Source of the DNA: Candidatus Edwardsbacteria bacterium
Lineage (GTDB): Bacteria > Edwardsbacteria > AC1 > EtOH8
Length of the DNA: 64,000 nucleotides
Assembly: GCA_020053305.1 (NCBI GenBank)
Contig: JAGVNJ010000009.1
Span: forward strand, 10,426-74,425
Direction of reading: 5' to 3'
Shown: in pieces, positions 1,858 to 57,355 of the stretch
Layout: each line of letters starts with the position of its first letter
Position numbering within the stretch: the stretch's first letter is position 1
The notes under the pieces: generated by a model
What the model was told of the DNA's origin: nothing
The model's input: only the letters and a program-made list of their open reading frames with translations
Databases searched by the model: none
Program-made: the position numbers and the translations under genes

Positions 1858-4104
1858 ATGACCAAACATCAGGAACCCATCGTAGATATAAAATTAGCCC
1901 GGAGCTTCGGGATCAACCAAGAGGAGTTCGACAGCATCCAGCGGATAATGGGGCGGATGCCCAGCTATACCGAACTGGGCATCTTTTCGGTGCTGTGGTC
2001 CGAACACTGCTCCTATAAGAATTCCAAGCCGCTGCTGAAGCTGTTCCCCACCCGGGCGCCCCAGGTCCTGCAGGGGCCGGGCGAGAATGCCGGGATAGTG
2101 GACATCGGAGACGGACTGGGGATCGCCATGAAGGTGGAGAGCCACAATCATCCCTCGGCCATCGAGCCCTACCAGGGGGCGGCTACCGGCATCGGCGGCA
2201 TTTTGCGGGACATCTTCACCATGGGGGCCAGGCCTATCGCCCTGATGGACCCGCTTTACTTCGGGTCGCTGGAGGATGCCCATGTCCGGCACCTGTTCTC
2301 CGGGGTGGTCTCCGGCATCGCCGATTACGGCAACTGCGTGGGCATACCCACCGTGGGCGGCTCGGTGGTGTTCGACGAGTCCTATACCACCAACCCGCTG
2401 GTCAACGTGATGTGCCTGGGGTTGGTGGAGAACAAGAAGATCATGCGGGGCTTCGCCTCGGGCTCTGGCAACCTGGTGATAGCCGTGGGGGCCACCACCG
2501 GCCGGGACGGCATCCACGGGGCCACCTTCGCCTCGGAGGAGCTGTCCGAGGAATCCTCGGCCAAGCGTCCCTCGGTCCAGATAGGGGACCCCTTCACCAA
2601 GAAACTGCTGCTGGAGGCCACCCTGGAGTTGATCGAATCCGGCCTGGCGGTGGGCATCCAGGACATGGGGGCGGCCGGGCTGACCAGTTCTTCCATAGAG
2701 ATGGCCTCCCGGGCCGGTACCGGCCTGGAGATGGACATGTCTCAAGTGCCGCTCAGGGAAAAGGGGATGACTCCGTACGAGATCATGCTATCGGAATCCC
2801 AGGAGAGAATGGTGGTGGTGGCTCCCAAGGAAAATTACGAACAGATCAAAGCGATATTCGACAAATGGGAGCTTCATTGCTCGTCAATAGGGGTGGTCAC
2901 AGATGACGGCCATGTTCGAATAAAATGGGGCGAAGAGGTCTTTGCCGATATCCCGGTTAAAGCCCTGGTCGATGAGGCCCCAGTCTACGAAAGAGAAAGC
3001 CAGAAACCGGGTTATCTCGATAAGTTAAAGCAATTCATTCAAAATGACATCAAAGAACCAAAAGACCATAACCGTTCGCTTAATATTGTATTATCAGCTC
3101 CGACCATCGCCAGTAAACGCTGGGTATATCAGCAGTACGACCACCAGGTGCGGACCAACACCGCCGTTCTGCCGGGCTCCGATGCCGCCGTTCTGCGTAT
3201 TCGCGGCACCAACAAGGCTATCGGCATCACCACCGACTGCAACGGCCGGTACTGTTATTTGAATCCCTTCAACGGCGGAGCCATCGCAGTGGCCGAGGCC
3301 GCCCGCAATCTGGCCTGTTCCGGGGCCAAACCATTGGGTTTGACCGACTGTCTGAATTTCGGCAATCCCTACAAGCCCGAGGTCTTTTACCAGATGAAGC
3401 AGGCGGTGGAGGGTCTGGCCGAGGCCTGCAAGGTCCTGGAGGTGCCGGTGATCTCCGGCAATGTCAGCCTGTATAACGAGAGCCTGACCCACAGCGTCTA
3501 TCCCACGCCCCTGATAGGCATGGTGGGGCTGATCGAGGACCTTTCGCAAATCACCACCCAGTGGTTCAAGGAGCCCGGCGACGTTGTATTTCTGGCCGGC
3601 GATATCAAATCCCAGCCGGACATCGGGGGCTCGGAGTATCTTAAAGTGGTGCATGGCCAGGTGAACGGCGATGCCCCGGCCATAGACCTGAGTGCCGAAA
3701 AGAAACTGCATGATTTCGTCAGGGATGCCATCAAGGCCGGGCTGGTTCGCTCGGCCCATGACTGCTCGGAAGGCGGCCTGGCCGTGGCCCTGGCCGAGTG
3801 CTGTTTTACACCACCCCTTGATCCCCTCCTTAACAAGGAGGGGACAGGATTGGTTGCTGATCTGTCCGACCTGCCGGGAAGAAGCGATTTCAAGCTGTTT
3901 GCCGAGTTCCAGAGCCGGATAGTACTATCATGCAAGCCCTCTGATATTGAGAAGCTGGAAGGATTGGCCAAGAAGCAGGGCGTGGACATTATGAAATTAG
4001 GAACAGTAGGCGGCGACAGGCTGGTTATAAAGGATCTGATTGACCTACCGGTGGCCGAGGCCAGAAAGACCTGGGAAGAGGCCATACCGAATATTATGAA
4101 GTGA
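1858..4104 (+). CDS. purL: Phosphoribosylformylglycinamidine synthase subunit PurL
   Basis: [31 protein letters not shown] and SGNVSLYN motifs. Confidence 0.98.
3811..3848. repeat. Palindromic element in-frame inside purL
   Basis: TCCCCTCCTT-AAC-AAGGAGGGGA (3822-3844) is a perfect 10-bp stem and encodes [11 protein letters not shown]. Confidence 0.7.
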
Positions 4105-4222: not shown

Positions 4223-4266
4223 CGTCATCCTGAGCAAGGCAAACCTGCCTCGCAAGCCGAAGGATC
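4223..4266. repeat. Intergenic copy of the GTCATCCTGAG...GAAGGATC element family
   Basis: CGTCATCCTGAGCAAGGCAAACCTGCCTCGCAAGCCGAAGGATC; the reverse complement aligns with 9021-9063 and 18322-18361. Confidence 0.75.
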
Positions 4267-4292
4267 TGAACCATCGTTTAAACGGGCCACCC

Positions 4293-4955: not shown

Positions 4956-5036
4956 CCCTCTCCTAATGCGTTAGGAGAGAGCCTGCACTGAGTAATGCCT
5001 GAATTTATGCCAGCCGAAGTGGGAAGGGGTGGGGTC
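4956..5036. repeat. CCCTCTCCTAA...TTAGGAGAG element interrupted by a 41-bp nested insert
   Basis: Matches 45385-45424 and 47883-47922 except for extra sequence at 4980-5020. Confidence 0.7.
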
Positions 5037-8945: not shown

Positions 8946-9935
8946 GTGAAGATGATGAAAAAGATATTTAATAATAACGTCATTCTGAGGGATGCTTTCA
9001 ACAGGACCATCGAAGAATCTGATCCTTCGGCTTGCCGGGCATGGTGGGATTCTCAGGATGACGATAGGAATGATAAAAGGTTGCGAGCGGCTGGAGGCAT
9101 TATTATATCGGCCTTTGCCATTCTGTATCTGGCCCTGTCCGGGTGCAGCCGGCCGGTGGCGCCCAGCCACAGCAACCCCCATGATCCCGACAATCCCGAT
9201 TTCACCGGGCCGGCGGTGGAGATCATCTCCCCGGTCGAGGGGGCATCGATAGCTTCCGGCACCGCCACCATCCATCTGCACGGCTCCGGCCTGAACTATG
9301 AGTACTCCTACAAGCTGGACAACGCCCCGGATTGGCATACTCCGTGGTCCAACGATACCATTCTGACCATAACCAATCTCAGGGAAGGTCCGCATACCAT
9401 CCAAGCCATAGCCCGGGATAAGGGCGGCTATCTGGGTTTGCCGACCCCGGTGCGGAATTTCACGATCAACCAGTATGCCAACACCGTGCTGATGTATCCC
9501 CCGACCCAGACCATCGCCGTGGGGGACACCGCCGAGGTGTGGTGCGAGTTGGAGGATATGGCCACCCCGGTCTCGGCCGTCAGGCTGGTGATCTACATGA
9601 GCAATTATACGATGGCGGACACCCTTAGCGCCTGCGCCGACACCGGGTACCATTGGAGGAGCAACGGGGGATCGCCAATGGGGCCGTTCTTCAGCAATTA
9701 CAGCAACAATTATTATATGGACGTCAGCCTGGGGGTGGCCGGGGGAAGCCCGGCCGGGGTCAGCGGAACGGGGCGGATATTCAAGATCCAGGCCGCCGGG
9801 GTGTCGGTTGGCACAACGTATATGTATGTCAATAACATTTACGCCCGGGATACCTTGAACAATCCTATAACCGTGACCAACCCCTACAAGTACGCTTACA
9901 TATATGTCACTTCCGGCAAGGAGGGCGGGAAATGA
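8946..9935 (+). CDS. Lipoprotein with Ig-like and cohesin-like domains
   Basis: LALSGC lipobox followed by NPHDPDNP; YSYKLD...LREGPHT Ig module; VGDTAEV...GVSGTGRIFKIQ cohesin-like module; exact start uncertain. Confidence 0.7.
   Translation: MKMMKKIFNNNVILRDAFNRTIEESDPSACRAWWDSQDDDRNDKRLRAAGGIIISAFAILYLALSGCSRPVAPSHSNPHDPDNPDFTGPAVEIISPVEGASIASGTATIHLHGSGLNYEYSYKLDNAPDWHTPWSNDTILTITNLREGPHTIQAIARDKGGYLGLPTPVRNFTINQYANTVLMYPPTQTIAVGDTAEVWCELEDMATPVSAVRLVIYMSNYTMADTLSACADTGYHWRSNGGSPMGPFFSNYSNNYYMDVSLGVAGGSPAGVSGTGRIFKIQAAGVSVGTTYMYVNNIYARDTLNNPITVTNPYKYAYIYVTSGKEGGK
8978..9063. repeat. 86-bp bipartite palindromic element in-frame upstream of the lipoprotein signal
   Basis: Outer arms CGTCATTCTGAG / CTCAGGATGACG; inner arms CGAAGAATC / GATCCTTCG. 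Confidence 0.8.
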
Positions 9936-16421: not shown

Positions 16422-19085
16422 TTACCCTACAATATTCACCAGCTTCTTGGGCACCACCACTACTTTCTTTATATTCAGATCCACCAAATACTTTTTCACC
16501 TGTTCGCTGTTCAAGGCGATCTTCTTAAGCTCCTCGTCGCTGATATCGGCCGGGACAGTTATCCTGTCCCGTAGCTTGCCATTTATCTGGACCACCAAGG
16601 TGATCTCGTCATTGGCGGCTATCAGGAGATCGGATTTGGGCCATTGAGCCTTATAGGTGGTCCCTTTATGCCCCAGCATCTGCCACAGCTCCTCGGACAT
16701 ATGCGGGGTGAAGGGCGCCATCAGCAGGGTCAGGGTCTCTATTATCTCCGAAACCAGGCAGGGATAATCGGCTGCCGGCACATCATCCTTGACGGGAAAG
16801 GCCTCCTGGACCTCGTTGGTGAGCTCCATCAGCGCCGCCACCGAAGTGTTGAACTGGAAGCGTTCCATGTCGTCGGTGACCTTCTTGATGGTCTGGTGCA
16901 GTTTCCGCCTGACCGATCTGACTGCTAAGTGGTCTTCCTGTTCGATCTCAGCTGCCCAGTCAGCCTTATAGACCGGCTGATAGGTGGTTATCCAGCGCCA
17001 CACCCGGTTGACAAACCGGAAAGAGCCGTTGATCCCCTCCTCGGTCCACTGGATATCGTCCTCGAACGGCGCCATGAACATCTCGTAGACCCTCAAACTG
17101 TCGGCCCCGTATTTCTGGGCGATCTCGTCCGGGGTCACCACATTGCCCTTGGACTTGGACATTCTGGCCCAGCGCCATACGATCTGGTCTTCGGGAAAGG
17201 CCTCCCTCTCCTCGGGCTTCAAAACTATCCAATCGACCAGACGGGCCTCACCGCCATCGCTCTCCGCATTCTCATTGGCCCGGGGCTTGCGCCCCGGGGT
17301 GTAGGCCAGAAGCGATCCCTGGTTATGGAGGGTCAAAAAGGGCTCGGTGAAATTCAGGTATCCCTCATCAAACAGGACCTTGGTCCAGAATCGGGAATAC
17401 AACAGGTGCGACCTGATGTGTTCGGCCCCTCCGGCGTAGATATCCACCGGCAGCCAATAGCCCAGCTTCTGATGGTCGGCAAATATATCGTTATTATGCG
17501 GGTCGGCGAACCTCAGGAAATACCAGGAGGAACAGGCGTAGCCGCCCATGGTGTCGGTCTCCCGTTTGGCCGGGCCGCCGCATTTCGGGCAGTTGGTATT
17601 TACGAACTCCGGGATATTGGCCAGGGGCGATTCTCCGGTGCCCGACGGATGGTAATTATCCACGTTAGGAAGCAGCACCGGGAGCTGGTCTTCGGGAACC
17701 GGCACGATCCCGCACTTGGGGCAGTGGATCATTGGTATGGGCGCTCCCCAGTACCGCTGGCGGCTGATCAGCCAGTCCCGCAGACGGTAGTTGACCTTGC
17801 CCCGCCCTTTTTGGTTCTGCTCCAGCCATTTTATGAATTTGGAGATGGTCTCTTTTGAATTGGGCAGGCCGTCGAACTGCCCGGAATTTATCATAGACCC
17901 GCCGTCGGGGATGGCCTGGGTCATCTCCTCGGGGCCGGCCGGCCCTCCCTCCGACCGGAACACCATCCGAATGGGAATATTAAACTTGCGGGCGAACTCG
18001 AAATCCCGCTGGTCGTGGGCCGGGACGGCCATGATGGCCCCGGTGCCGTAGCCCATCATCACGTAGTCGGCGATCCAGATGGGGATCTTCTCGCCGTTGA
18101 CCGGATTTGTGGCATAACTGCCGGTGAAGACGCCGGTCTTGGTGCGCTCGGTGTTCAGCCGTTCGATCTCGGTCTCACTCTGGGTTTTCTTGATGTAGGC
18201 TTCGACCTCGGCTTTTTTCTCAGGCAGGGTCAGATCTTCCACCAGGTGATGCTCCGGCGCCAGCACCATGAAGGTGGCCCCGAACAGGGTGTCCGGCCGG
18301 GTGGTGAATACCTGAATTCTTGATCCATTCGCTTGTTGGGCAGGGCTGCCTTTCTCAGGACAAGATTCTGAATTTTGAATTTTGAATTCAACTTTTGCTC
18401 CCTCGCTTCGACCTATCCAGTCCCGCTGCATCTCCTTCATGCCCTCGGTCCAATGGAGCTTCTCCAGGTCATCCAGCAGCCGGTCGGCGTAGGCGGTGAT
18501 CTTAAAGAACCACTGGGGCATGGGGCGTTTTTCCACCGGATTGTCGCAGCGCCAGCAGCGGCCCTCCTTGACCTCCTCGTTGGCCAGCCCGGTCTTGCAT
18601 GACGGGCACCAGTTGATGGGCGCGGTGTCGCGGTAGGCCAGGCCCTTTTTATAGAGCAGCAGAAAGATCCACTGGGTCCAGCGGTAATATTCCGGCAGGC
18701 TGGAATCTATCTCCCGGGTCCAATCGTAACTGCATCCGGCCAGCTTGAGGGTCCGCTTGTAATTAGCGGCGTACTCCGGCACCATCTGCCGGGGGTTGCG
18801 TCCCTTCTTGATGGCCTCGTTCTCGGCCGGCTGGCCGAAGGCGTCCCAGCCCATGGGATGCAGCACATTGAATCCGGCCATGCTCTTGTAGCGGCAGAAG
18901 GCGTCCATCGGCACGTAGTTCTTGAGGTGACCCACATGGAGGCCCGACCCCGAGGGATAGGGGAACATCTCCAGGCAGTAGGTCTTGGGCCGGTCCGAAT
19001 CATCGTGGGCCTTGAAGGTCTTCTCCCTTTCCCAGGTCTCCTGCCACCTGGCCTCGATTTCTCTGAAATTATATTCTCTGGTCAT
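16422..19085 (-). CDS. leuS: Leucine--tRNA ligase
   Basis: MFPYPSG, HVGH (HIGH), FTTRPDT, GTGAIMAVPAHD, SRQRYWG and RMSKS (KMSKS variant) motifs. Confidence 0.98.
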   Translation of the reverse strand: MTREYNFREIEARWQETWEREKTFKAHDDSDRPKTYCLEMFPYPSGSGLHVGHLKNYVPMDAFCRYKSMAGFNVLHPMGWDAFGQPAENEAIKKGRNPRQMVPEYAANYKRTLKLAGCSYDWTREIDSSLPEYYRWTQWIFLLLYKKGLAYRDTAPINWCPSCKTGLANEEVKEGRCWRCDNPVEKRPMPQWFFKITAYADRLLDDLEKLHWTEGMKEMQRDWIGRSEGAKVEFKIQNSESCPEKGSPAQQANGSRIQVFTTRPDTLFGATFMVLAPEHHLVEDLTLPEKKAEVEAYIKKTQSETEIERLNTERTKTGVFTGSYATNPVNGEKIPIWIADYVMMGYGTGAIMAVPAHDQRDFEFARKFNIPIRMVFRSEGGPAGPEEMTQAIPDGGSMINSGQFDGLPNSKETISKFIKWLEQNQKGRGKVNYRLRDWLISRQRYWGAPIPMIHCPKCGIVPVPEDQLPVLLPNVDNYHPSGTGESPLANIPEFVNTNCPKCGGPAKRETDTMGGYACSSWYFLRFADPHNNDIFADHQKLGYWLPVDIYAGGAEHIRSHLLYSRFWTKVLFDEGYLNFTEPFLTLHNQGSLLAYTPGRKPRANENAESDGGEARLVDWIVLKPEEREAFPEDQIVWRWARMSKSKGNVVTPDEIAQKYGADSLRVYEMFMAPFEDDIQWTEEGINGSFRFVNRVWRWITTYQPVYKADWAAEIEQEDHLAVRSVRRKLHQTIKKVTDDMERFQFNTSVAALMELTNEVQEAFPVKDDVPAADYPCLVSEIIETLTLLMAPFTPHMSEELWQMLGHKGTTYKAQWPKSDLLIAANDEITLVVQINGKLRDRITVPADISDEELKKIALNSEQVKKYLVDLNIKKVVVVPKKLVNIVG
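18322..18388. repeat. Degenerate element copy plus TGAATTT heptamer tandem, in-frame in leuS
   Basis: GATCCATTCGCTTGTTGGGCAGGGCTGCCTTTCTCAGGAC aligns with the reverse complement of 4223-4266; about three TGAATTT units at 18369-18388; encodes KIQNSESCPEKGSPAQQANGS. Confidence 0.7.
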
Positions 19086-31419: not shown

Positions 31420-32871
31420 TCACCCCGGCTCGCGTATTGACATCACTTCACCCTTGCTGAGGAAGCAGTTGCGGAGCGAATTGTCCGTCAGATGCTTGAG
31501 TATCTCATCAAGCAGTTGCCTGGCAATTTCCCGTTGCTCCCCGGCCCTGCCCGGTTCTCCCAGAGCCGTAAATATTTGATGCCCCAGGGAATGGACCTGC
31601 AGGGCGAATGACTTGTGTACAATCTCCGACAGCTCCGTCTTCAGGGTTATATATTCCTCCCGGGCCTCCGGCCACCTCCCCTGCCGCGCCAGGGCCCGCA
31701 TCTTACCGTAAAGCAACAGGCATCGATCGTTTTTTCTCAATGCCCGGCCGTCACGGCACAAGTACCTGTCGATTAATTCAACGGCCTCGCCCGGCGGCCG
31801 AAGACATGACAACACCCGTAGACGGACCAGCTCCAGGCGGGCCGACAGTTCCGTTTCCTCAATCTCCCGACCTATCTCCAAAGCGAGATCCAGATGCCTC
31901 TCCGCATCTCCGGGACAATCCATCAGAGAATAACAATGGGCCAAATAGCCGTTGGTGACGGCCTCGGTCGGCCGGTCATTGACCTCCCGGACAGCAGCGA
32001 TTGACGCCCGGAGGTGTTCGATCCCTTTATGATAATCGGCCAGGTCAACGTACATTTGCCCCATCATTTCATTCCCCAGCCCTACACTGATAAGGTCTTC
32101 CGCCTCTCTGCCCAGCTCCAAGCATCGGCGCGCCAAGGCAAAGGCTCGGTCGTAATCGCCCTGGTGCCAGTACATTTCCGAAACGTTCCCCGATACCACC
32201 GCACTGCCAAGCTTGTACCCGGCGCGATCGTAATGCTTGACGGCCGAGGCGTAGGCCTGAATGGTTTCCGCTGTCCGGTTCTGGCCCCTCAGGCAGATTC
32301 CCAGATTGTTGTAGGCGTCTCCCAGGATGTCGACCGAATTGAATCTCTCGTAGACTGTTATAGCCTGCCGCAGCAGGCTCTCGGCAGGCTGAAGCTGGTT
32401 GCCGTACACCAGGGTCAGACCCTTGTCCAGCCAGATGCCGGCCCGGGCCAGATCGCTGTCGGCATGCTTTTCTGCCTCCTGATAATACTGCAGGGCCTGG
32501 CGGGTCAGAGTCTTTTCGCGAGCTATCAAAGCCCGCCATTCGTAAGCCTGACGGATTATATTTTTATCGGTGTCAGCCTCGATCACTTCCAATAGCCTGT
32601 CGGCCAGTTCCTCGGCCTTATTCAGATCGCCGATAACGCTGAAATGCCTTACCTGCATTATTAAAAAATCGATTTGGTGATCGTTCCGGTCAATCCGCAG
32701 AAGCAGTTTCCCCAGGGTTTCAAGCAGTTCCCGTTCCTGCACCCGCTCCGCCAGCAGATTTATTATGTTCAACTTCTGGCTGTAAAGGTACCAGAGCTTC
32801 TCCATCCACTGCGCGGCTGTGATTTCCCCGTCTGACGCATATTTATAATTTTGCTTAGCCATAAATTTCAA
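31420..32871 (-). CDS. Stand-alone MalT-like TPR protein
   Basis: Repeats such as AYNNLGICL..A...Y..A and GNVSEMY..GDY..A; start could be 32862. Confidence 0.75.
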   Translation of the reverse strand: MKFMAKQNYKYASDGEITAAQWMEKLWYLYSQKLNIINLLAERVQERELLETLGKLLLRIDRNDHQIDFLIMQVRHFSVIGDLNKAEELADRLLEVIEADTDKNIIRQAYEWRALIAREKTLTRQALQYYQEAEKHADSDLARAGIWLDKGLTLVYGNQLQPAESLLRQAITVYERFNSVDILGDAYNNLGICLRGQNRTAETIQAYASAVKHYDRAGYKLGSAVVSGNVSEMYWHQGDYDRAFALARRCLELGREAEDLISVGLGNEMMGQMYVDLADYHKGIEHLRASIAAVREVNDRPTEAVTNGYLAHCYSLMDCPGDAERHLDLALEIGREIEETELSARLELVRLRVLSCLRPPGEAVELIDRYLCRDGRALRKNDRCLLLYGKMRALARQGRWPEAREEYITLKTELSEIVHKSFALQVHSLGHQIFTALGEPGRAGEQREIARQLLDEILKHLTDNSLRNCFLSKGEVMSIREPG

Positions 32872-33506
32872 CGGTACAGCTTCCCCCGATACTTAATTTC
32901 CTCAATATACATCACTTCGCAGGAGCCGTCCCCGGCGTCCTCCCGGCTCAGGGATGAGTTCCACCAGAAATTGCTCTCTCCTTTAACGGCATCCACATAG
33001 ACCAGAAAACCGTAGGCTTCGATAGTGTCCCAGGCCGAGATGTTCCGCAGGGCCGCCCGGAGGTTATCGTTGGCCGGGATGGCGTGGACGTTAGCCGAAT
33101 AACGGGCAATGAAGGTATTGTCAAAGGGGAATTCCTCGTCATAACGCCAGTAATACCAGCGGTTGCTTTGCGACCAGCGCACTTTTTTATACAAGCCGGT
33201 GGTGGTCATCTTGCCCCAGGCCACCGCCAGGTCGCAGGGGGCTATGGTCGAGTTCCAATCCGAGCCGTAATTTTTTCTGCTCAACACCAAGCCTTTTAAA
33301 ATATATTCGGCCTTTGGTTTTATAGTTATGTCGTAGTCATTGGCCGAAATTTTGATCGGGTTCTGATCCTCCAGTGGCAGCTGCACCGGATCGTCCCGAA
33401 TATCGATCGTTTCGCTGTCGACGGTCCCTTCCGGCGGAGTCCCGCAGGATTGCAGCAATATCAGGCAAAATATGATCATCAGGATAACCGTGGCGTTTCG
33501 GGACAT
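32868..33506 (-). CDS. Hypothetical lipoprotein
   Basis: LLQSC lipobox; DLAVAWG, SQSNRWY, SANVHAIP and SSLSREDAGDGSCE look like conserved motifs. Confidence 0.8.
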   Translation of the reverse strand: MSRNATVILMIIFCLILLQSCGTPPEGTVDSETIDIRDDPVQLPLEDQNPIKISANDYDITIKPKAEYILKGLVLSRKNYGSDWNSTIAPCDLAVAWGKMTTTGLYKKVRWSQSNRWYYWRYDEEFPFDNTFIARYSANVHAIPANDNLRAALRNISAWDTIEAYGFLVYVDAVKGESNFWWNSSLSREDAGDGSCEVMYIEEIKYRGKLYR

Positions 33507-45361: not shown

Positions 45362-45424
45362 GACCTCTCCCTGCCTATCGGCTTCCCTCTCCTAAAGCAT
45401 TAGGAGAGGGGCAGGGGTGAGGTC
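45362..45424. repeat. GACCTC...CCCTCTCCTAAAGCATTAGGAGAGGG...GAGGTC palindromic element
   Basis: Nested stems; the 26-bp core 45385-45410 is identical to 47883-47908. Confidence 0.85.
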
Positions 45425-47869: not shown

Positions 47870-47922
47870 ACCTCTCCCCCGCCCCTCTCCTAAAGCATTA
47901 GGAGAGGGAGATGGGTGAGGTC
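47870..47922. repeat. Second copy of the CCCTCTCCTAAAGCATTAGGAGAGGG element
   Basis: ACCTC...GAGGT outer arms; core identical to the 45385 copy and in the same orientation. Confidence 0.85.
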
Positions 47923-54883: not shown

Positions 54884-54949
54884 GTTCTTAACCCAGCCTT
54901 TCCTCCTTCGCTTAAATTACGGCGGACAAGTAAGGGCTGGGTTAAGAAC
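54884..54949. repeat. CTTAACCCAGCC...GGCTGGGTTAAG palindrome split by a ~30-bp insert
   Basis: Arms 54884-54901 and 54931-54949 match the uninterrupted copy at 57255-57284. Confidence 0.8.
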
Positions 54950-56281: not shown

Positions 56282-57355
56282 TCATCTCCTTCTAATCATA
56301 TATATTATCAGCAGGGCCACCAGTCCCAGGCAGGCTGCCAAAGCGCCCAGGACGGTGTATTCCTTGGATGGGTATACATCGAACCTGCCTGACGGCATTT
56401 TGCCCATTTCCAAGCTATCAAACGGGATGCGGTTTATCGGTTGATTATATTTATCTTTGTTTTGCAGATAATCGGCAAAATGATCGAACCTAGGCCTGCT
56501 TTCATAGCCGATCAGCACATCATCATGCCGGATGGGGCTGCGACCGGAGATTTTAAAATAAAGTCCGCCCTGTCCGTCCTGACGAAATACTTCCCGGGGG
56601 TAGACCCCGTAAACCTGCGATGCTTTAAGCCCGCCTTTGAGGTTGATCTGCAGTTCGGTCTCCTGCAGCGGGCCGTCCCAGGCCCGGGCCTGCTCCAGCA
56701 GGAATCCCAGGAAGAACGAGCGGCGGACATTGCCGCCCCGGGACAGCTGGGCCGGGCCGGTCCTGAGCGCATAGGATATCCTTATAGTATCACGACTATG
56801 GGGCGGGATATCCATAATCCATCCATACCATTGGCTGACCGAATCGCGGTATGATTCGGGCAGGGAAAGATATATCTCGCTGGTTCGGAGATCGGGGTTG
56901 ATATTTTTTACCGCCAGCTCCCGCCCTTGCCAGGATATTTTCAGGTCGAATAGAGAATCCATTTTGACGACGGAGACCTCATGGTGGAAAAAACTTCCGC
57001 TTTTGGGGAGGCCCAAAGATAGTGTAATATTATTTTGACTGCGGTTTCCCAGAATGATCTCTGCGTTGACCACCGCCAGCCCGGGATAGAGGTCAACCAG
57101 TATTGCCTGCCTTTCCATGGAGGCCAGACCGTATCTGATGTCGTTCCGGGCCGGGACAGGAACAATGTTCCGGCCTATCCCCGCTCCCTGCAAAACCGGA
57201 GCGATGGCCCGCAAAGACCCGGCTGACAGGACCAGCAATGCTATAACACAGGTCCTTAACCCAGCCCTTAAGGGCTGGGTTAAGTAAACCCGTCGCATAC
57301 AGTCAAGGCCATTCATGGCCTTAGGTTTATCATAATTTGCTTTCATCTTTATCAA
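56282..57355 (-). CDS. Exported hypothetical protein with a C-terminal TM anchor (DUF4424-like)
   Basis: Signal-like segment; M..Q.I.VDL, I.ISY and W.GP motifs; C-terminal TM plus RRR; start uncertain. Confidence 0.65.
   Translation of the reverse strand: MIKMKANYDKPKAMNGLDCMRRVYLTQPLRAGLRTCVIALLVLSAGSLRAIAPVLQGAGIGRNIVPVPARNDIRYGLASMERQAILVDLYPGLAVVNAEIILGNRSQNNITLSLGLPKSGSFFHHEVSVVKMDSLFDLKISWQGRELAVKNINPDLRTSEIYLSLPESYRDSVSQWYGWIMDIPPHSRDTIRISYALRTGPAQLSRGGNVRRSFFLGFLLEQARAWDGPLQETELQINLKGGLKASQVYGVYPREVFRQDGQGGLYFKISGRSPIRHDDVLIGYESRPRFDHFADYLQNKDKYNQPINRIPFDSLEMGKMPSGRFDVYPSKEYTVLGALAACLGLVALLIIYMIRRR
57255..57284. repeat. Perfect 30-bp palindrome in-frame in the CDS N-terminus
   Basis: CTTAACCCAGCCCTT/AAGGGCTGGGTTAAG; encodes LTQPLRAGLR. 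Confidence 0.85.

What the first reader, a model, noticed from the sequence alone, without database searches (positions are those of the whole stretch)
18322..18388. Same element family in-frame in the leuS editing-domain region
Seen: GATCCATTCGCTTGTTGGGCAGGGCTGCCTTTCTCAGGA aligns closely with GATCCTTCGGCTTGCGAGGCAGGTTTGCCTTGCTCAGGA (reverse complement of 4223-4266). It adjoins TGAATTT tandems and lies just before the conserved FTTRPDT motif. With purL, msrA, 8946 and 56282, five CDS in 64 kb carry in-frame palindromes from four families. Inference: an RPE-like repeat-to-peptide process operates genome-wide in this lineage, even in essential genes.
Basis: partly seen in the sequence, partly recalled or inferred. 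Interest (0 to 1): 0.7.

Follow-up and report, generated by a model that had tools for sequence, protein, structure and literature searches.

The report
Hairpin repeat translated inside leuS
A short hairpin-type DNA repeat that is scattered through this bacterium's genome has recently landed in frame inside the essential leucyl-tRNA synthetase gene, where it adds a floppy 14-residue surface loop; this kind of event is already known from Rickettsia and other bacteria.

Summary
Window 18319-18364 is a 46-nt block inside leuS (16422-19085, minus strand). It belongs to a lineage-wide repeat family, consensus CGTCATYCTGAG-N~22-CGAAGRATCT, with 43 copies in this genome. It is read in frame as S241-R256, a net gain of 14 residues at the tip of the first beta-hairpin of the editing domain. 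AlphaFold2 gives this stretch as the only segment with pLDDT under 50.

The gain is recent. All four same-genus species lack it, and so do the other 9 LeuS sequences of the 90% cluster that cover the site.

A species of another genus (G016) has the same degenerate copy at the same site, 54 of 55 nt identical. Its three nearest relatives lack it, so I favour transfer of a short allele patch.

The class is known: CGTC-tagged REPs, which include Rickettsia RPE-4/6 (Di Nocera 2013), and the hairpins that flank Ssn GIY-YIG single-strand nucleases (Chenal 2025). The likely partner enzyme is an Ssn-like GIY-YIG gene, not a RAYT. Three of 11 such genes here lie within 100 nt of family copies (1 of 20,000 permutations).

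"Genome-wide repeat-to-peptide" is only partly true: I could confirm 2 translated sites among 38 loci of this family. This scan has reported the same phenomenon before in other genomes.

The parts
16422..19085 (-). leuS (leucyl-tRNA synthetase), 887 aa, intact
   Evidence: ORF. It matches T. thermophilus LeuRS 1h3n over residues 4-886 at E 5e-263. The AlphaFold2 model has mean pLDDT 88.8.
18319..18364 (-). 46-nt inserted block, a degenerate copy of the hairpin repeat. It encodes S241-R256 and takes the place of 4 nt of the relatives' sequence, a net +42 nt.
   Evidence: DNA alignment with G001-G004, which lack it, and G016, which has it. Together with the 9 nt that follow, 54 of 55 nt are identical to G016. 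Residues 241-252 are the only segment with pLDDT under 50. There is a 14-residue gap against 1h3n at the hairpin tip.
18328..18360 (+). Core of the block, as matched by the family HMM (HMM orientation is GATYCTTCG...CTCAGRATGACG)
   Evidence: nhmmer hit at C55:28753-28785, 12.0-12.7 bits.
18365..18389 (-). Heptamer tandem array, (R)AATTCA x3.6, which encodes the first strand of the beta-hairpin (EFKIQNSE). This is the target region, not part of the element.
   Evidence: Relatives have 5 heptamers running straight through, and G014 has 5 perfect GAATTCA units.
18310..18318 (-). Remainder of the heptamer array after the insert (AATTCAGGT; it starts the IQVF strand)
   Evidence: These 9 nt are identical in G000 and G016. 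G016's nearest relatives G012, G009 and G015 read AATTGAAGT there.
4223..4267 (+). Single intergenic copy of the family, between purL and the next gene; the CGTCAT tag is on the + strand
   Evidence: nhmmer E 2e-10 to 4e-8. It is conserved at the orthologous place in G004.
8978..9063 (+). Inverted dimer of the family (left unit 8978-9020, right unit 9021-9063), lying in frame in the N-terminal region of a lipoprotein precursor that starts at the ATG at 8952
   Evidence: nhmmer hits. The ORF is open from a conserved GAGGTGAAG-ATG in G000, G001 and G003, and G003 has no alternative start between the dimer and the signal peptide. The dimer folds as one long hairpin, -14.5 kcal/mol, z -2.0.

Best explanation
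What it is. The segment is a degenerate, probably immobile copy of a lineage-specific hairpin repeat. The repeat belongs to the CGTC-tagged / Ssn-related class, with unit consensus CGTCATYCTGAG - about 22 variable nt - CGAAGRATCT. The copy was inserted into the heptamer-repeat DNA that encodes the tip of the first beta-hairpin of the LeuRS editing (CP1) domain. Only an in-frame, stop-free version could survive in an essential gene. It is now translated as a 16-residue disordered surface loop (SCPEKGSPAQQANGSR) between two intact beta-strands, so the enzyme fold is unaffected.

Shown:
- family membership;
- the in-frame position;
- absence from all close relatives, so the gain is recent;
- the predicted loop.

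Inferred:
(a) The family is propagated, or at least acted on, by small Ssn-type GIY-YIG single-strand DNA nucleases. Their genes sit between inverted copies of it. The gene-less inverted dimers look like such cassettes without the ORF.
(b) The leuS copy has lost the CGTC tag (it reads CTTGTCC) and has an extra T in the 3' arm, so it is probably no longer a nuclease substrate.
(c) The nearly identical copy in genus g6 (G016) arrived by recombination of a short leuS patch from a g1-like donor, not by a second insertion.
For: Family and significance:
- Strict pattern: 19 copies in G000, and 1-44 copies in all 16 of the 16 other genomes of family f1. The reversed-pattern control gives 0 in all 41 genomes searched. 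Only 4 of 24 genomes outside f1 have 1-2 copies.
- HMM: 43-45 copies at E<=0.01.
- leuS copy: 30 of 39 identity to the 4228-4266 copy, next best in the window 24; 1 of 20,000 shuffles reaches its HMM score.
- The Y and R positions covary: CG 7, TA 11, TG 1, CA 0.

Recent insertion:
- Of 16 f1 genomes whose leuS covers the site, 2 have the insert (G000, G016), 13 have the 17-residue spacing, and 1 (G011) has a tandem duplication.
- In the 90% identity cluster of this LeuS, 10 of 15 members cover the site and only this protein has the insert.
- 0 of 120 LeuS hits from the 5.8-billion-protein search carry it.

Structure:
- The only segment with pLDDT under 50 is 241-252, between strands 226-236 and 256-261.
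- There is a 14-residue gap against 1h3n at the hairpin turn.
- The spacing between the two motifs ranges from 17 to 59 residues across 120 LeuS, so the tip tolerates inserts.

Nuclease link:
- Each of the 11 small GIY-YIG genes has a GTCAT...//...ATGAC hairpin, a tRNA fragment or another palindrome in at least one flank. Eight have them on both sides. C18 and C37 have them on one side only.
- 3 of the 11 lie within 100 nt of this family, against 1 of 20,000 permutations.
- The same layout is seen in relatives. In G003:C4 copies at 32808-32846 and 33135-33174 flank the gene at 32903-33118. In G007:C267 a copy at 2505-2544 lies beside the gene at 2612-2818.
- Chenal 2025 shows that such nucleases cut ssDNA just upstream of their hairpin.

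Patch transfer:
- The inserts are 54 of 55 nt identical, while the genes are 70% identical.
- Both copies share the same departures from the family consensus.
- No other copy within 3 mismatches of the 27-nt core exists in any of the 17 family genomes.
- In the leuS tree without the hairpin, G016 is sister to G012 (support 0.957) inside (G009, G015), and G000 is sister to G002 (0.998).
- The 11 nt after the insert in G016 are G000-like (11 of 11) and unlike G012 (7 of 11).
Against: - Genome-wide the HMM hit is weak: E 0.22-0.73, and 46-58 hits rank above it.
- The copy lacks the CGTC tag that defines the class.
- Single units do not fold better than shuffled sequence as ssDNA (z -0.5 to +1.3). 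The case for a hairpin therefore rests on the Y/R covariation and on the dimer.
- None of the 43 family copies fits the published SRM search pattern.
- Only 3 of the 11 GIY-YIG genes carry this particular family. No nuclease activity or mobility has been shown for it.
- Against patch transfer: sliding-window identity shows no extended G000-like tract around the insert in G016, so the transferred patch would have to be about 60-100 nt. G014, in G016's own genus, also has AGAATTCAGGT, so the flank argument is not conclusive.
Confidence: 0.8

Rival explanations
1. Two independent, site-specific insertions. The element, or its nuclease, targets the heptamer array or hairpin-tip DNA of leuS. G000 and G016 would each have acquired it from an unsampled master copy, for example on a plasmid or phage that was not binned.
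For: - The upstream flanks differ right up to the element boundary, and no extended recombination tract is seen.
- The same LeuS hairpin tip carries other hairpin repeats in unrelated metagenomic lineages. Of 58 LeuS loci with the region found, 14 have 20 or more residues between the motifs. In 4 of those 14 the extra DNA folds better than every control window of the same gene. One of them, L180, holds a canonical SRM-pattern unit inside a GTCAT...ATGAC dimer.
- purL shows two different hairpins at one site within the genus.
Against: - Both copies share the same degenerate features: lost CGTC tag, extra T, same 3' junction. An active master would be expected to have these intact.
- No second copy within 3 mismatches exists in any of the 17 family genomes.
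- In the species-representative collection the exact 21-mer occurs otherwise only in a locus with the coordinates of G016's leuS contig and in one chance hit.
- Recurrent hits at this tip can also be explained by tolerance: the spacing ranges from 17 to 59 residues.
Confidence: 0.25
2. The loop is unrelated to the repeat family. It would be an ordinary lineage-specific insertion, arising by slippage or of unknown origin, and its likeness to the repeat is chance.
For: The genome-wide E-value is 0.22-0.73. The tag is absent. The single unit has no significant fold. This hairpin tip varies in length across bacteria.
Against: - 30 of 39 identity to the 4228-4266 copy, against a next best of 24 in the window.
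- 1 of 20,000 shuffles reaches the HMM score.
- The boundaries of the insert, defined independently by comparison with relatives, coincide with the unit's two conserved ends, CCTGAG and CGAA(T)GGATC.
- Close variants of both halves occur among the copies in relatives, e.g. G013:C23:19220 and G004:C4:541224.
Confidence: 0.06
3. An old insertion in the common ancestor of genera g1 and g6, kept in G000 and G016 and deleted precisely everywhere else.
For: The direct repeats flanking the block (AGAAT...AGAAT in G000) could promote precise deletion.
Against: - It needs at least six independent precise losses on the leuS tree.
- The insert differs at 1 of 55 nt, while the genes differ at 30% of nt.
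- The other 9 LeuS sequences of the 90% cluster that cover the site lack it.
Confidence: 0.04

Closest known systems
NTS / Ssn-related motifs (SRM) and SsnA GIY-YIG single-strand DNA nucleases (Chenal et al., Nat Commun 2025, PMC11893778; abstract and sections 6, 7, 8, 10, 12 and 17 read)
   Same: - The unit has the oriented CGTCAT head, a stem that starts ATYC and ends GRAT, and a C(T) tail.
- Copies occur as singles and as inverted dimers.
- Inverted copies bracket small single-domain GIY-YIG genes of about 80-115 aa, the hairpin-gene-hairpin layout that the paper describes.
[quoted passage not shown] Intragenic copies are also rare here.
   Different: - The unit is about 46 nt, with a 5-bp outer stem and a variable interior of about 28 nt. 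NTS is a 28-nt simple hairpin.
- 0 of 43 copies fit the paper's degenerate SRM pattern, although another family in this genome does (49 hits against 14 in the control).
- Membership of the local GIY-YIG genes in cd10448 could not be tested. They match Pfam GIY-YIG and the PDB UPF0213 proteins 1ywl and 1zg2.
- No cleavage data exist for this family.
CGTC-tagged REPs (Di Nocera, De Gregorio & Rocco, BMC Genomics 2013, PMC3733652; passages and Additional file 3 searched)
   Same: - CGTC tag at one end, and mostly head-to-head dimers.
- Intragenic in-frame units encoding up to 20-30 aa, including units in aminoacyl-tRNA synthetase genes (glycyl-tRNA synthetase beta in two species).
- No RAYT association.
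- The paper gives the same caution that N-terminal cases may be annotation artefacts.
   Different: - The paper's table gives stems of 8-9 bp and loops of 4-5 nt. This family does not fit that.
- leuS is not in their list (0 occurrences of 'leucyl' or 'leuS').
- The phylum here (Candidatus Edwardsbacteria, by the names) is outside the 5 phyla they report.
Rickettsia palindromic elements (RPE; Ogata et al. 2000, as summarised in the MITE review PMC10969869; passages read)
   Same: Palindromic repeats inserted in frame into unrelated housekeeping genes and translated as extra peptide segments that are compatible with the fold.
   Different: - RPEs are about 100-150 bp and encode a conserved peptide. 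According to the review they sit in ORFs at unusually high frequency (44 insertions in R. conorii).
- Here the unit is 46 nt. I could confirm 2 translated sites for this family in a 2.6-Mb genome.
REP / REPIN elements with RAYT (Y1 HUH) transposases
   Same: Short hairpin repeats, inverted doublets, and a dedicated small enzyme gene flanked by the repeats.
   Different: - There is no GTAG tag.
- No family copy lies within 2.9 kb of any of the 5 Y1_Tnp matches in G000.
- Searches covered the flanks of four of them. No family copy and no family-type inverted repeat was found there, and two have their own GTAG-type palindromes.

Membership tests
CGTC-tagged REP (Di Nocera 2013) | CGTC tetranucleotide at one end of the unit | tested here: met
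   17 of 20 strict G000 copies end ...ATGACG, which is CGTCAT on the other strand; 2 have ATGACA and 1 has ATGATG (alignment). The leuS copy itself does NOT have it: it reads CTTGTCC.
CGTC-tagged REP (Di Nocera 2013) | Stem of 8-9 bp with a loop of 4-5 nt (their Table 1, seen) | tested here: not met
   The outer stem is ATYCT/AGRAT, 5 bp, supported by covariation (CG 7, TA 11, TG 1, CA 0). The interior is about 28 nt. Single units fold no better than shuffles.
Ssn-related motif (SRM; Chenal 2025) | Fits the published degenerate search sequence HGTCWYN(0-2)YYVSBRHN(0-5)WNVSBRGN(0-2)RNCYNB (section 17) | tested here: not met
   0 of 43 family copies overlap a match, and the leuS region has no match. 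Genome-wide there are 49 matches against 14 in the reversed control, all from another family.
Ssn-related motif (SRM; Chenal 2025) | Copies flank small single-domain GIY-YIG (ssnA-like) genes on one or both sides | tested here: met
   3 of 11 small GIY-YIG genes of G000 have a copy within 100 nt (C77 and C36:48791 on both sides, C18 on one side). 1 of 20,000 permutations reaches 3. There are further cases at G003:C4 and G007:C267.
Ssn-related motif (SRM; Chenal 2025) | The cognate nuclease binds the hairpin as ssDNA and cuts a few nt upstream | not testable with these tools
   A biochemical assay is needed.
Ssn nuclease family (cd10448) | The local GIY-YIG proteins belong to the cd10448 clade | not testable with these tools
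   No CDD library is held. Pfam PF01541 hits at 1e-16. NCBIfam gives no family above its cut-off. The best PDB hits are the UPF0213 proteins 1ywl and 1zg2, at E 7e-4 and 5e-3.
REP/REPIN with RAYT | GTAG tag, and a RAYT gene flanked by the repeats | tested here: not met
   5 PF01797 matches. The nearest family copy to any of them is 2.9 kb away. Searches covered the flanks of four of them (C57 was not examined) and found no family copy there. Two have their own GTAG-type palindromes.
RPE-like in-frame intragenic repeat (the behaviour, not a sequence family) | A multi-copy palindromic element present in frame in a conserved gene and absent from orthologues | tested here: met
   2 of 16 family genomes carry it in leuS, and 1 of 10 members of the 90% cluster that cover the site.
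MITE | Terminal inverted repeats plus a target-site duplication | tested here: inconclusive
   The unit ends are weakly inverted (ATYCT/AGRAT). In leuS the block replaces 4 nt and is flanked by AGAAT...AGAAT, but these belong to the heptamer array, so a duplication cannot be called. The one site tested for an empty orthologue (8978-9063 against G001) holds a different hairpin rather than a clean empty site.

The most novel reading that the evidence does not exclude
The gene-less hairpin insert behaves like a homing element. An Ssn-type nuclease would cut single-stranded leuS DNA, taken up by transformation or exposed at the replication fork, just upstream of the hairpin. This would create an end that is joined by microhomology inside the heptamer array, while the conserved TTRPDT-coding flank provides the homologous anchor. 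In this way the insert-bearing patch would spread between genera at one fixed site of an essential gene. The same LeuRS hairpin tip, which in several lineages is encoded by tandem heptamers with 6-bp palindromes, would then be a preferred landing pad across phyla and not merely a tolerant loop.
Probability: 0.12. Interest if true: 0.7.

Novelty: new member of a known kind. Interest (0 to 1): 0.4.

Why it matters
This is a dated, clean example of a selfish hairpin repeat becoming protein sequence in an essential enzyme. The filled allele has empty alleles at over 90% protein identity beside it, and a structural model shows why the insert is tolerated. It extends the 2025 Ssn/SRM story to Candidatus Edwardsbacteria and to a repeat architecture that the published search pattern misses, so surveys based on that pattern will undercount such families.

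Two observations are the parts worth following up. First, the same degenerate copy sits at the same leuS site in two genera. Second, unrelated hairpin families occupy the same LeuRS hairpin tip in other phyla. Together they suggest either targeted insertion or exchange of very short allele patches between species. Both bear on how these repeats spread, which is still unknown.

For annotation, the result warns that short low-complexity loops in aminoacyl-tRNA synthetases may be repeat-derived.

Tried and rejected
- **RAYT/IS200 as mobiliser.** Five Y1_Tnp matches, and no family copy within 2.9 kb of any. Four had their flanks examined and none is flanked by the family.
- **Rfam at gathering threshold over the window.** Only a tRNA was found.
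- **Exact 21-mer of the insert.** In metagenome contigs, 0 hits. In genome contigs, 2 hits: L032, which has the same contig coordinates as the G016 leuS locus L039, and L031, a chance match whose similarity ends at the 21-mer.
- **Protein search restricted to residues 222-272.** 181 hits, 120 listed, none with the insert.
- **Public runs.** The best share of words was 0.22, so no near-identical holder was found and nothing can be said about habitat or polymorphism.
- **ssDNA folding of single units.** Not better than shuffles.
- **NCBIfam naming of the GIY-YIG genes.** Nothing above the cut-off.
- **My first reading of the 8946 ORF.** I took it for an over-extended ORF whose true start is a TTG after the dimer. 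I rejected this.
- **Clean empty site for the 8978-9063 dimer in G001.** G001 has a different, shorter hairpin there.
- **Literature.** A full-text search for six core strings of these repeats returned only unrelated primers and constructs. A search on GIY-YIG plus palindromic, repeat, intergenic and mobile returned organelle papers. The two relevant papers came from this scan's earlier notes, and I then read them myself.
- **Automatic classification of the GIY-YIG flanks.** It was too crude; I rely on the printed flanks.
Full report
**What is there**

leuS lies on the minus strand at 16422-19085 and encodes 887 aa. Between the GRSEG motif and the TTRPDT motif of the editing domain it reads AKVEFKIQNSE-SCPEKGSPAQQANGSR-IQVF, 31 residues. 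T. thermophilus LeuRS (1h3n) aligns over residues 4-886 at E 5e-263, with a single 14-residue gap exactly at the turn of this beta-hairpin.

It matches the reverse complement of 4228-4266 at 30 of 39 positions. The next best of all 39-mers of the window, on both strands, is 24.

**The repeat family**

A strict pattern, GATYCTTCG-N15-30-CTCAGRATGA, finds 19 copies in this genome. It finds 1-44 copies in every one of the 16 other genomes of the same taxonomic family. The reversed-pattern control gives none in any of the 41 genomes searched, and only 4 of 24 genomes outside the family have 1-2 copies.

An HMM built from 20 copies, without leuS, finds 43-45 copies at E<=0.01. They form 37 loci: 31 singles and 6 inverted dimers. 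Read on the other strand, the unit is CGTCATYCTGAG, about 22 variable nt, then CGAAGRATCT. The Y and R positions covary (CG 7, TA 11, TG 1, CA 0), which indicates a short closing stem. Single units do not fold better than shuffles as ssDNA; the dimer does (z -2.0).

The leuS copy scores 12.5-12.7 bits. Genome-wide this is weak (E 0.22-0.73, rank 47-59). For a segment defined beforehand it is strong: 1 of 20,000 shuffles reaches it, and so do 16 of 20,000 random genomic 60-mers, whose 10 printed examples all lie on true copies. No Rfam family matches.

**It is a recent insertion**

In 16 genomes of the family whose leuS covers the site, 13 have the 17-residue spacing. This is also the commonest value in the two wider samples (24 of 120 LeuS hits; 32 of 58 loci). 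One genome (G011) has a 20-aa tandem duplication, and two (G000, G016) have the insert. All four same-genus species lack it, at 86-94% protein identity and 83-90% nt identity.

At the DNA level a 46-nt block (18319-18364) replaces 4 nt of the relatives' sequence, a net +42 nt. In the 90% identity cluster of this LeuS, 10 of 15 members cover the site, and only this protein has the insert. Six full-length members are 873 aa, which is 887 minus 14. None of 120 LeuS hits from the large protein collection has it.

**Structure**

An AlphaFold2 model built from a 77-sequence alignment has mean pLDDT 88.8 and pTM 0.84. Its only segment with pLDDT under 50 is residues 241-252, inside the insert (241-256), between strands 226-236 and 256-261. 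The spacing between the two motifs ranges from 17 to 59 residues among 120 LeuS from many phyla. The tip is therefore naturally tolerant of inserts. That the loop is harmless to aminoacylation and editing is inferred, not shown.

**The target DNA is itself odd**

In the whole family the hairpin is encoded by about five tandem heptamers. G014 has five perfect GAATTCA units. Other species have AAATTTG or AAATTCG versions that are homogenised within each gene. The insert sits inside this array.

Arrays of (RAATTCN)n occur at several loci in 14 of the 16 other family genomes and in G000 itself. The control gives 0 in these genomes, and only 2 of 24 genomes outside the family have any. In G000 one such array also sits at the N-terminus of another CDS.

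**Which enzyme?**

The five Y1 transposase (PF01797) matches have no family copy within 2.9 kb. Four had their flanks examined, and none is flanked by the family. Two have their own GTAG-type palindromes.

The 11 small GIY-YIG genes of the genome look different. Each has hairpin units with GTCAT... and/or ...ATGAC termini, a tRNA fragment or another palindrome in at least one flank, and eight have them on both sides. Three carry this family (C77, C36:48791, C18), against 1 of 20,000 permutations that reach three. Others carry NTS-like or GTCATTGCGAG-type units. Three sit inside tRNA genes with duplicated 3' parts.

In the C77 cassette the left unit ends about 10 nt before the start codon, and the right unit begins at the stop codon. 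A gene-less dimer such as 8978-9063 therefore looks like the cassette without its ORF. The same layouts recur in 28 GIY-YIG loci from the relatives.

**Comparison with what is known**

Earlier notes of this scan pointed me to two papers, which I then read.

- Chenal et al. 2025 (PMC11893778) show that small GIY-YIG proteins (Ssn, cd10448) bind hairpin repeats with a CGTCAT head (NTS/SRM) as ssDNA and cut a few nt upstream. The repeats flank the ssn genes, and NTS are rarely inside genes.
- Di Nocera et al. 2013 (PMC3733652) defined CGTC-tagged REPs and placed Rickettsia RPE-4/6 among them. They found no dedicated transposase and listed in-frame intragenic units, including units in glycyl-tRNA synthetase but not in leuS.

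The present family shares the tag, the orientation, the dimers and the gene association. However, 0 of 43 copies fit the published SRM pattern, and the stem and loop sizes differ from the 2013 table. I therefore file it as a new member, with an extended architecture, of a known kind. It works like an SRM, but strict pattern membership was tested and not met.

**The second genus**

G016 (another genus; its leuS is 70% nt identical) has the same block at the same place and in the same frame. 54 of 55 nt are identical, including the degenerate tag (CTTGTCC where the consensus has CGTCATCC) and an extra T in the 3' arm. No other copy within 3 mismatches of the 27-nt core exists in any of the 17 family genomes.

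In a leuS tree built without the hairpin, G016 is sister to G012 (support 0.957) inside (G009, G015), all of which lack the insert. G000 is sister to G002 (0.998). In G000 the flanks are native. In G016 the 11 nt after the block match G000 (11 of 11) rather than G012 (7 of 11).

I therefore favour transfer of a short patch from a g1-like allele into the G016 lineage, at roughly even odds. Independent targeted insertion comes next. Retention of an ancient insert is unlikely. Three points count against a simple transfer:
- no extended tract of raised identity is seen around the insert;
- G014 shares the same 11 nt;
- neither assembly could be checked against reads.

**How general?**

For this family I could confirm two translated sites in the genome: leuS, and the dimer in the N-terminal region of the lipoprotein ORF that starts at 8952. 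Sixteen other open frames of 100 aa or more contain a copy. Thirteen of them have no Pfam domain. In the three that have one, the copy lies upstream of the domain.

Other families also contribute. purL has an in-frame hairpin at 3823-3843, and two different hairpins occupy that site within the genus.

In an independent sample of 80 metagenomic LeuS loci, the region was found in 58, and 14 of those have 20 or more residues between the motifs. In 4 of the 14 the extra DNA folds better than every control window of the same gene. Three of the four are hairpin-repeat inserts, and one of these contains a canonical SRM-pattern unit. The fourth is a palindromic heptamer array. The LeuRS hairpin tip is thus hit repeatedly by such repeats in unrelated bacteria.

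**Verdict**

The phenomenon is known, and this scan has met it before in other genomes. The points worth following up are the shared degenerate copy in two genera and the recurrent use of one protein loop.

Noticed in passing
window 18310-18389; loci L002-L015: In the whole bacterial family the LeuRS beta-hairpin between GRSEG and TTRPDT is encoded by about five tandem heptamers. G014 has five perfect GAATTCA units, and other species have AAATTTG or AAATTCG versions homogenised within the gene. Because the DNA period is 21 nt, the two strands of the protein hairpin have nearly the same sequence (EFKIQ NS EFKIQ). This looks like concerted evolution of a 7-nt repeat inside an essential CDS. An unrelated metagenomic LeuS (L157) encodes the same hairpin with (SAAGCTT)x5.
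   Followed up: partly
G000:C6:4817-4842, C10:63380-63405, C35:22363-22389, C35:29478-29504, C77:26572-26590: (RAATTCN)n heptamer arrays occur at several loci per genome in 14 of the 16 other genomes of the family and in G000 itself. The reversed control gives 0 in these genomes, and only 2 of 24 genomes outside the family have any. The array at C6 is in frame at the N-terminus of a CDS (MNKVKIQNSEFRILLKGGRVIDP), the same peptide as in LeuS.
   Followed up: partly
window 3810-3846 (palindrome at 3823-3843), inside purL 1858-4104: An in-frame hairpin of a different, multi-copy family (CCCCTCCTTAACAAGGAGGGG) encodes [15 protein letters not shown]002 and G004 share it. G001 and G003 carry a different hairpin (CCTCTCYCCCGATGGGCGAGGGGGG) at the same site. 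Dozens of short matches to it turn up in the relatives' genomes.
   Followed up: partly
G000:C51:21167-21376, C36:24432-24635, C11:7636-7848; L086, L088, L096, L100, L072, L087: A second subgroup of small GIY-YIG genes sits inside tRNA genes or directly after them. A duplicated 3' part of the tRNA lies on the other side, as expected for an element that integrates into tRNA genes.
   Followed up: no
L180:~900-1080, L114:~1160-1330, L158:~1170-1300: Other hairpin repeats occupy the same LeuRS hairpin tip in unrelated metagenomic bacteria. L180 has a GTCATTCCCGCG...GGGAATGAC dimer, one unit of which fits the published SRM pattern. L114 has a GTCATTGCGAG-type dimer. L158 has a CCCCCTCT...AGAGGGGG hairpin. 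Each folds better than every control window of its own gene.
   Followed up: partly
L018 (G011:C138), also protein P0009: The leuS of G011 has a perfect 60-nt (20-aa) tandem duplication of the hairpin plus TTRP (TVEFRILNSELRIQVFTTRP twice). It may be real or an assembly artefact of a contig end.
   Followed up: no
window 57255-57284 and 54884-54949: A perfect 30-nt palindrome (CTTAACCCAGCCCTT/AAGGGCTGGGTTAAG) lies in the probable signal-peptide n-region of ORF 56282-57355 (MRRVYLTQPLRAGLRTCVIALLVLSAG). A related imperfect pair lies at 54884-54949 between genes. Whether it is translated was not tested against relatives.
   Followed up: partly
L034 (G000:C64) and L035 (G000:C55:85489-88833): Two Y1 transposase genes are flanked by their own inverted palindromes containing GTAG/CTAC, i.e. 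classical RAYT-REP pairs, which belong to families other than the one studied here.
   Followed up: no
window 4956-4995, 45385-45424, 47883-47922: There is another palindromic repeat family (CCCTCTCCTAA-N-TTAGGAGAGGG) with three copies in the window and many short matches in the relatives (query positions 1455-1495).
   Followed up: no
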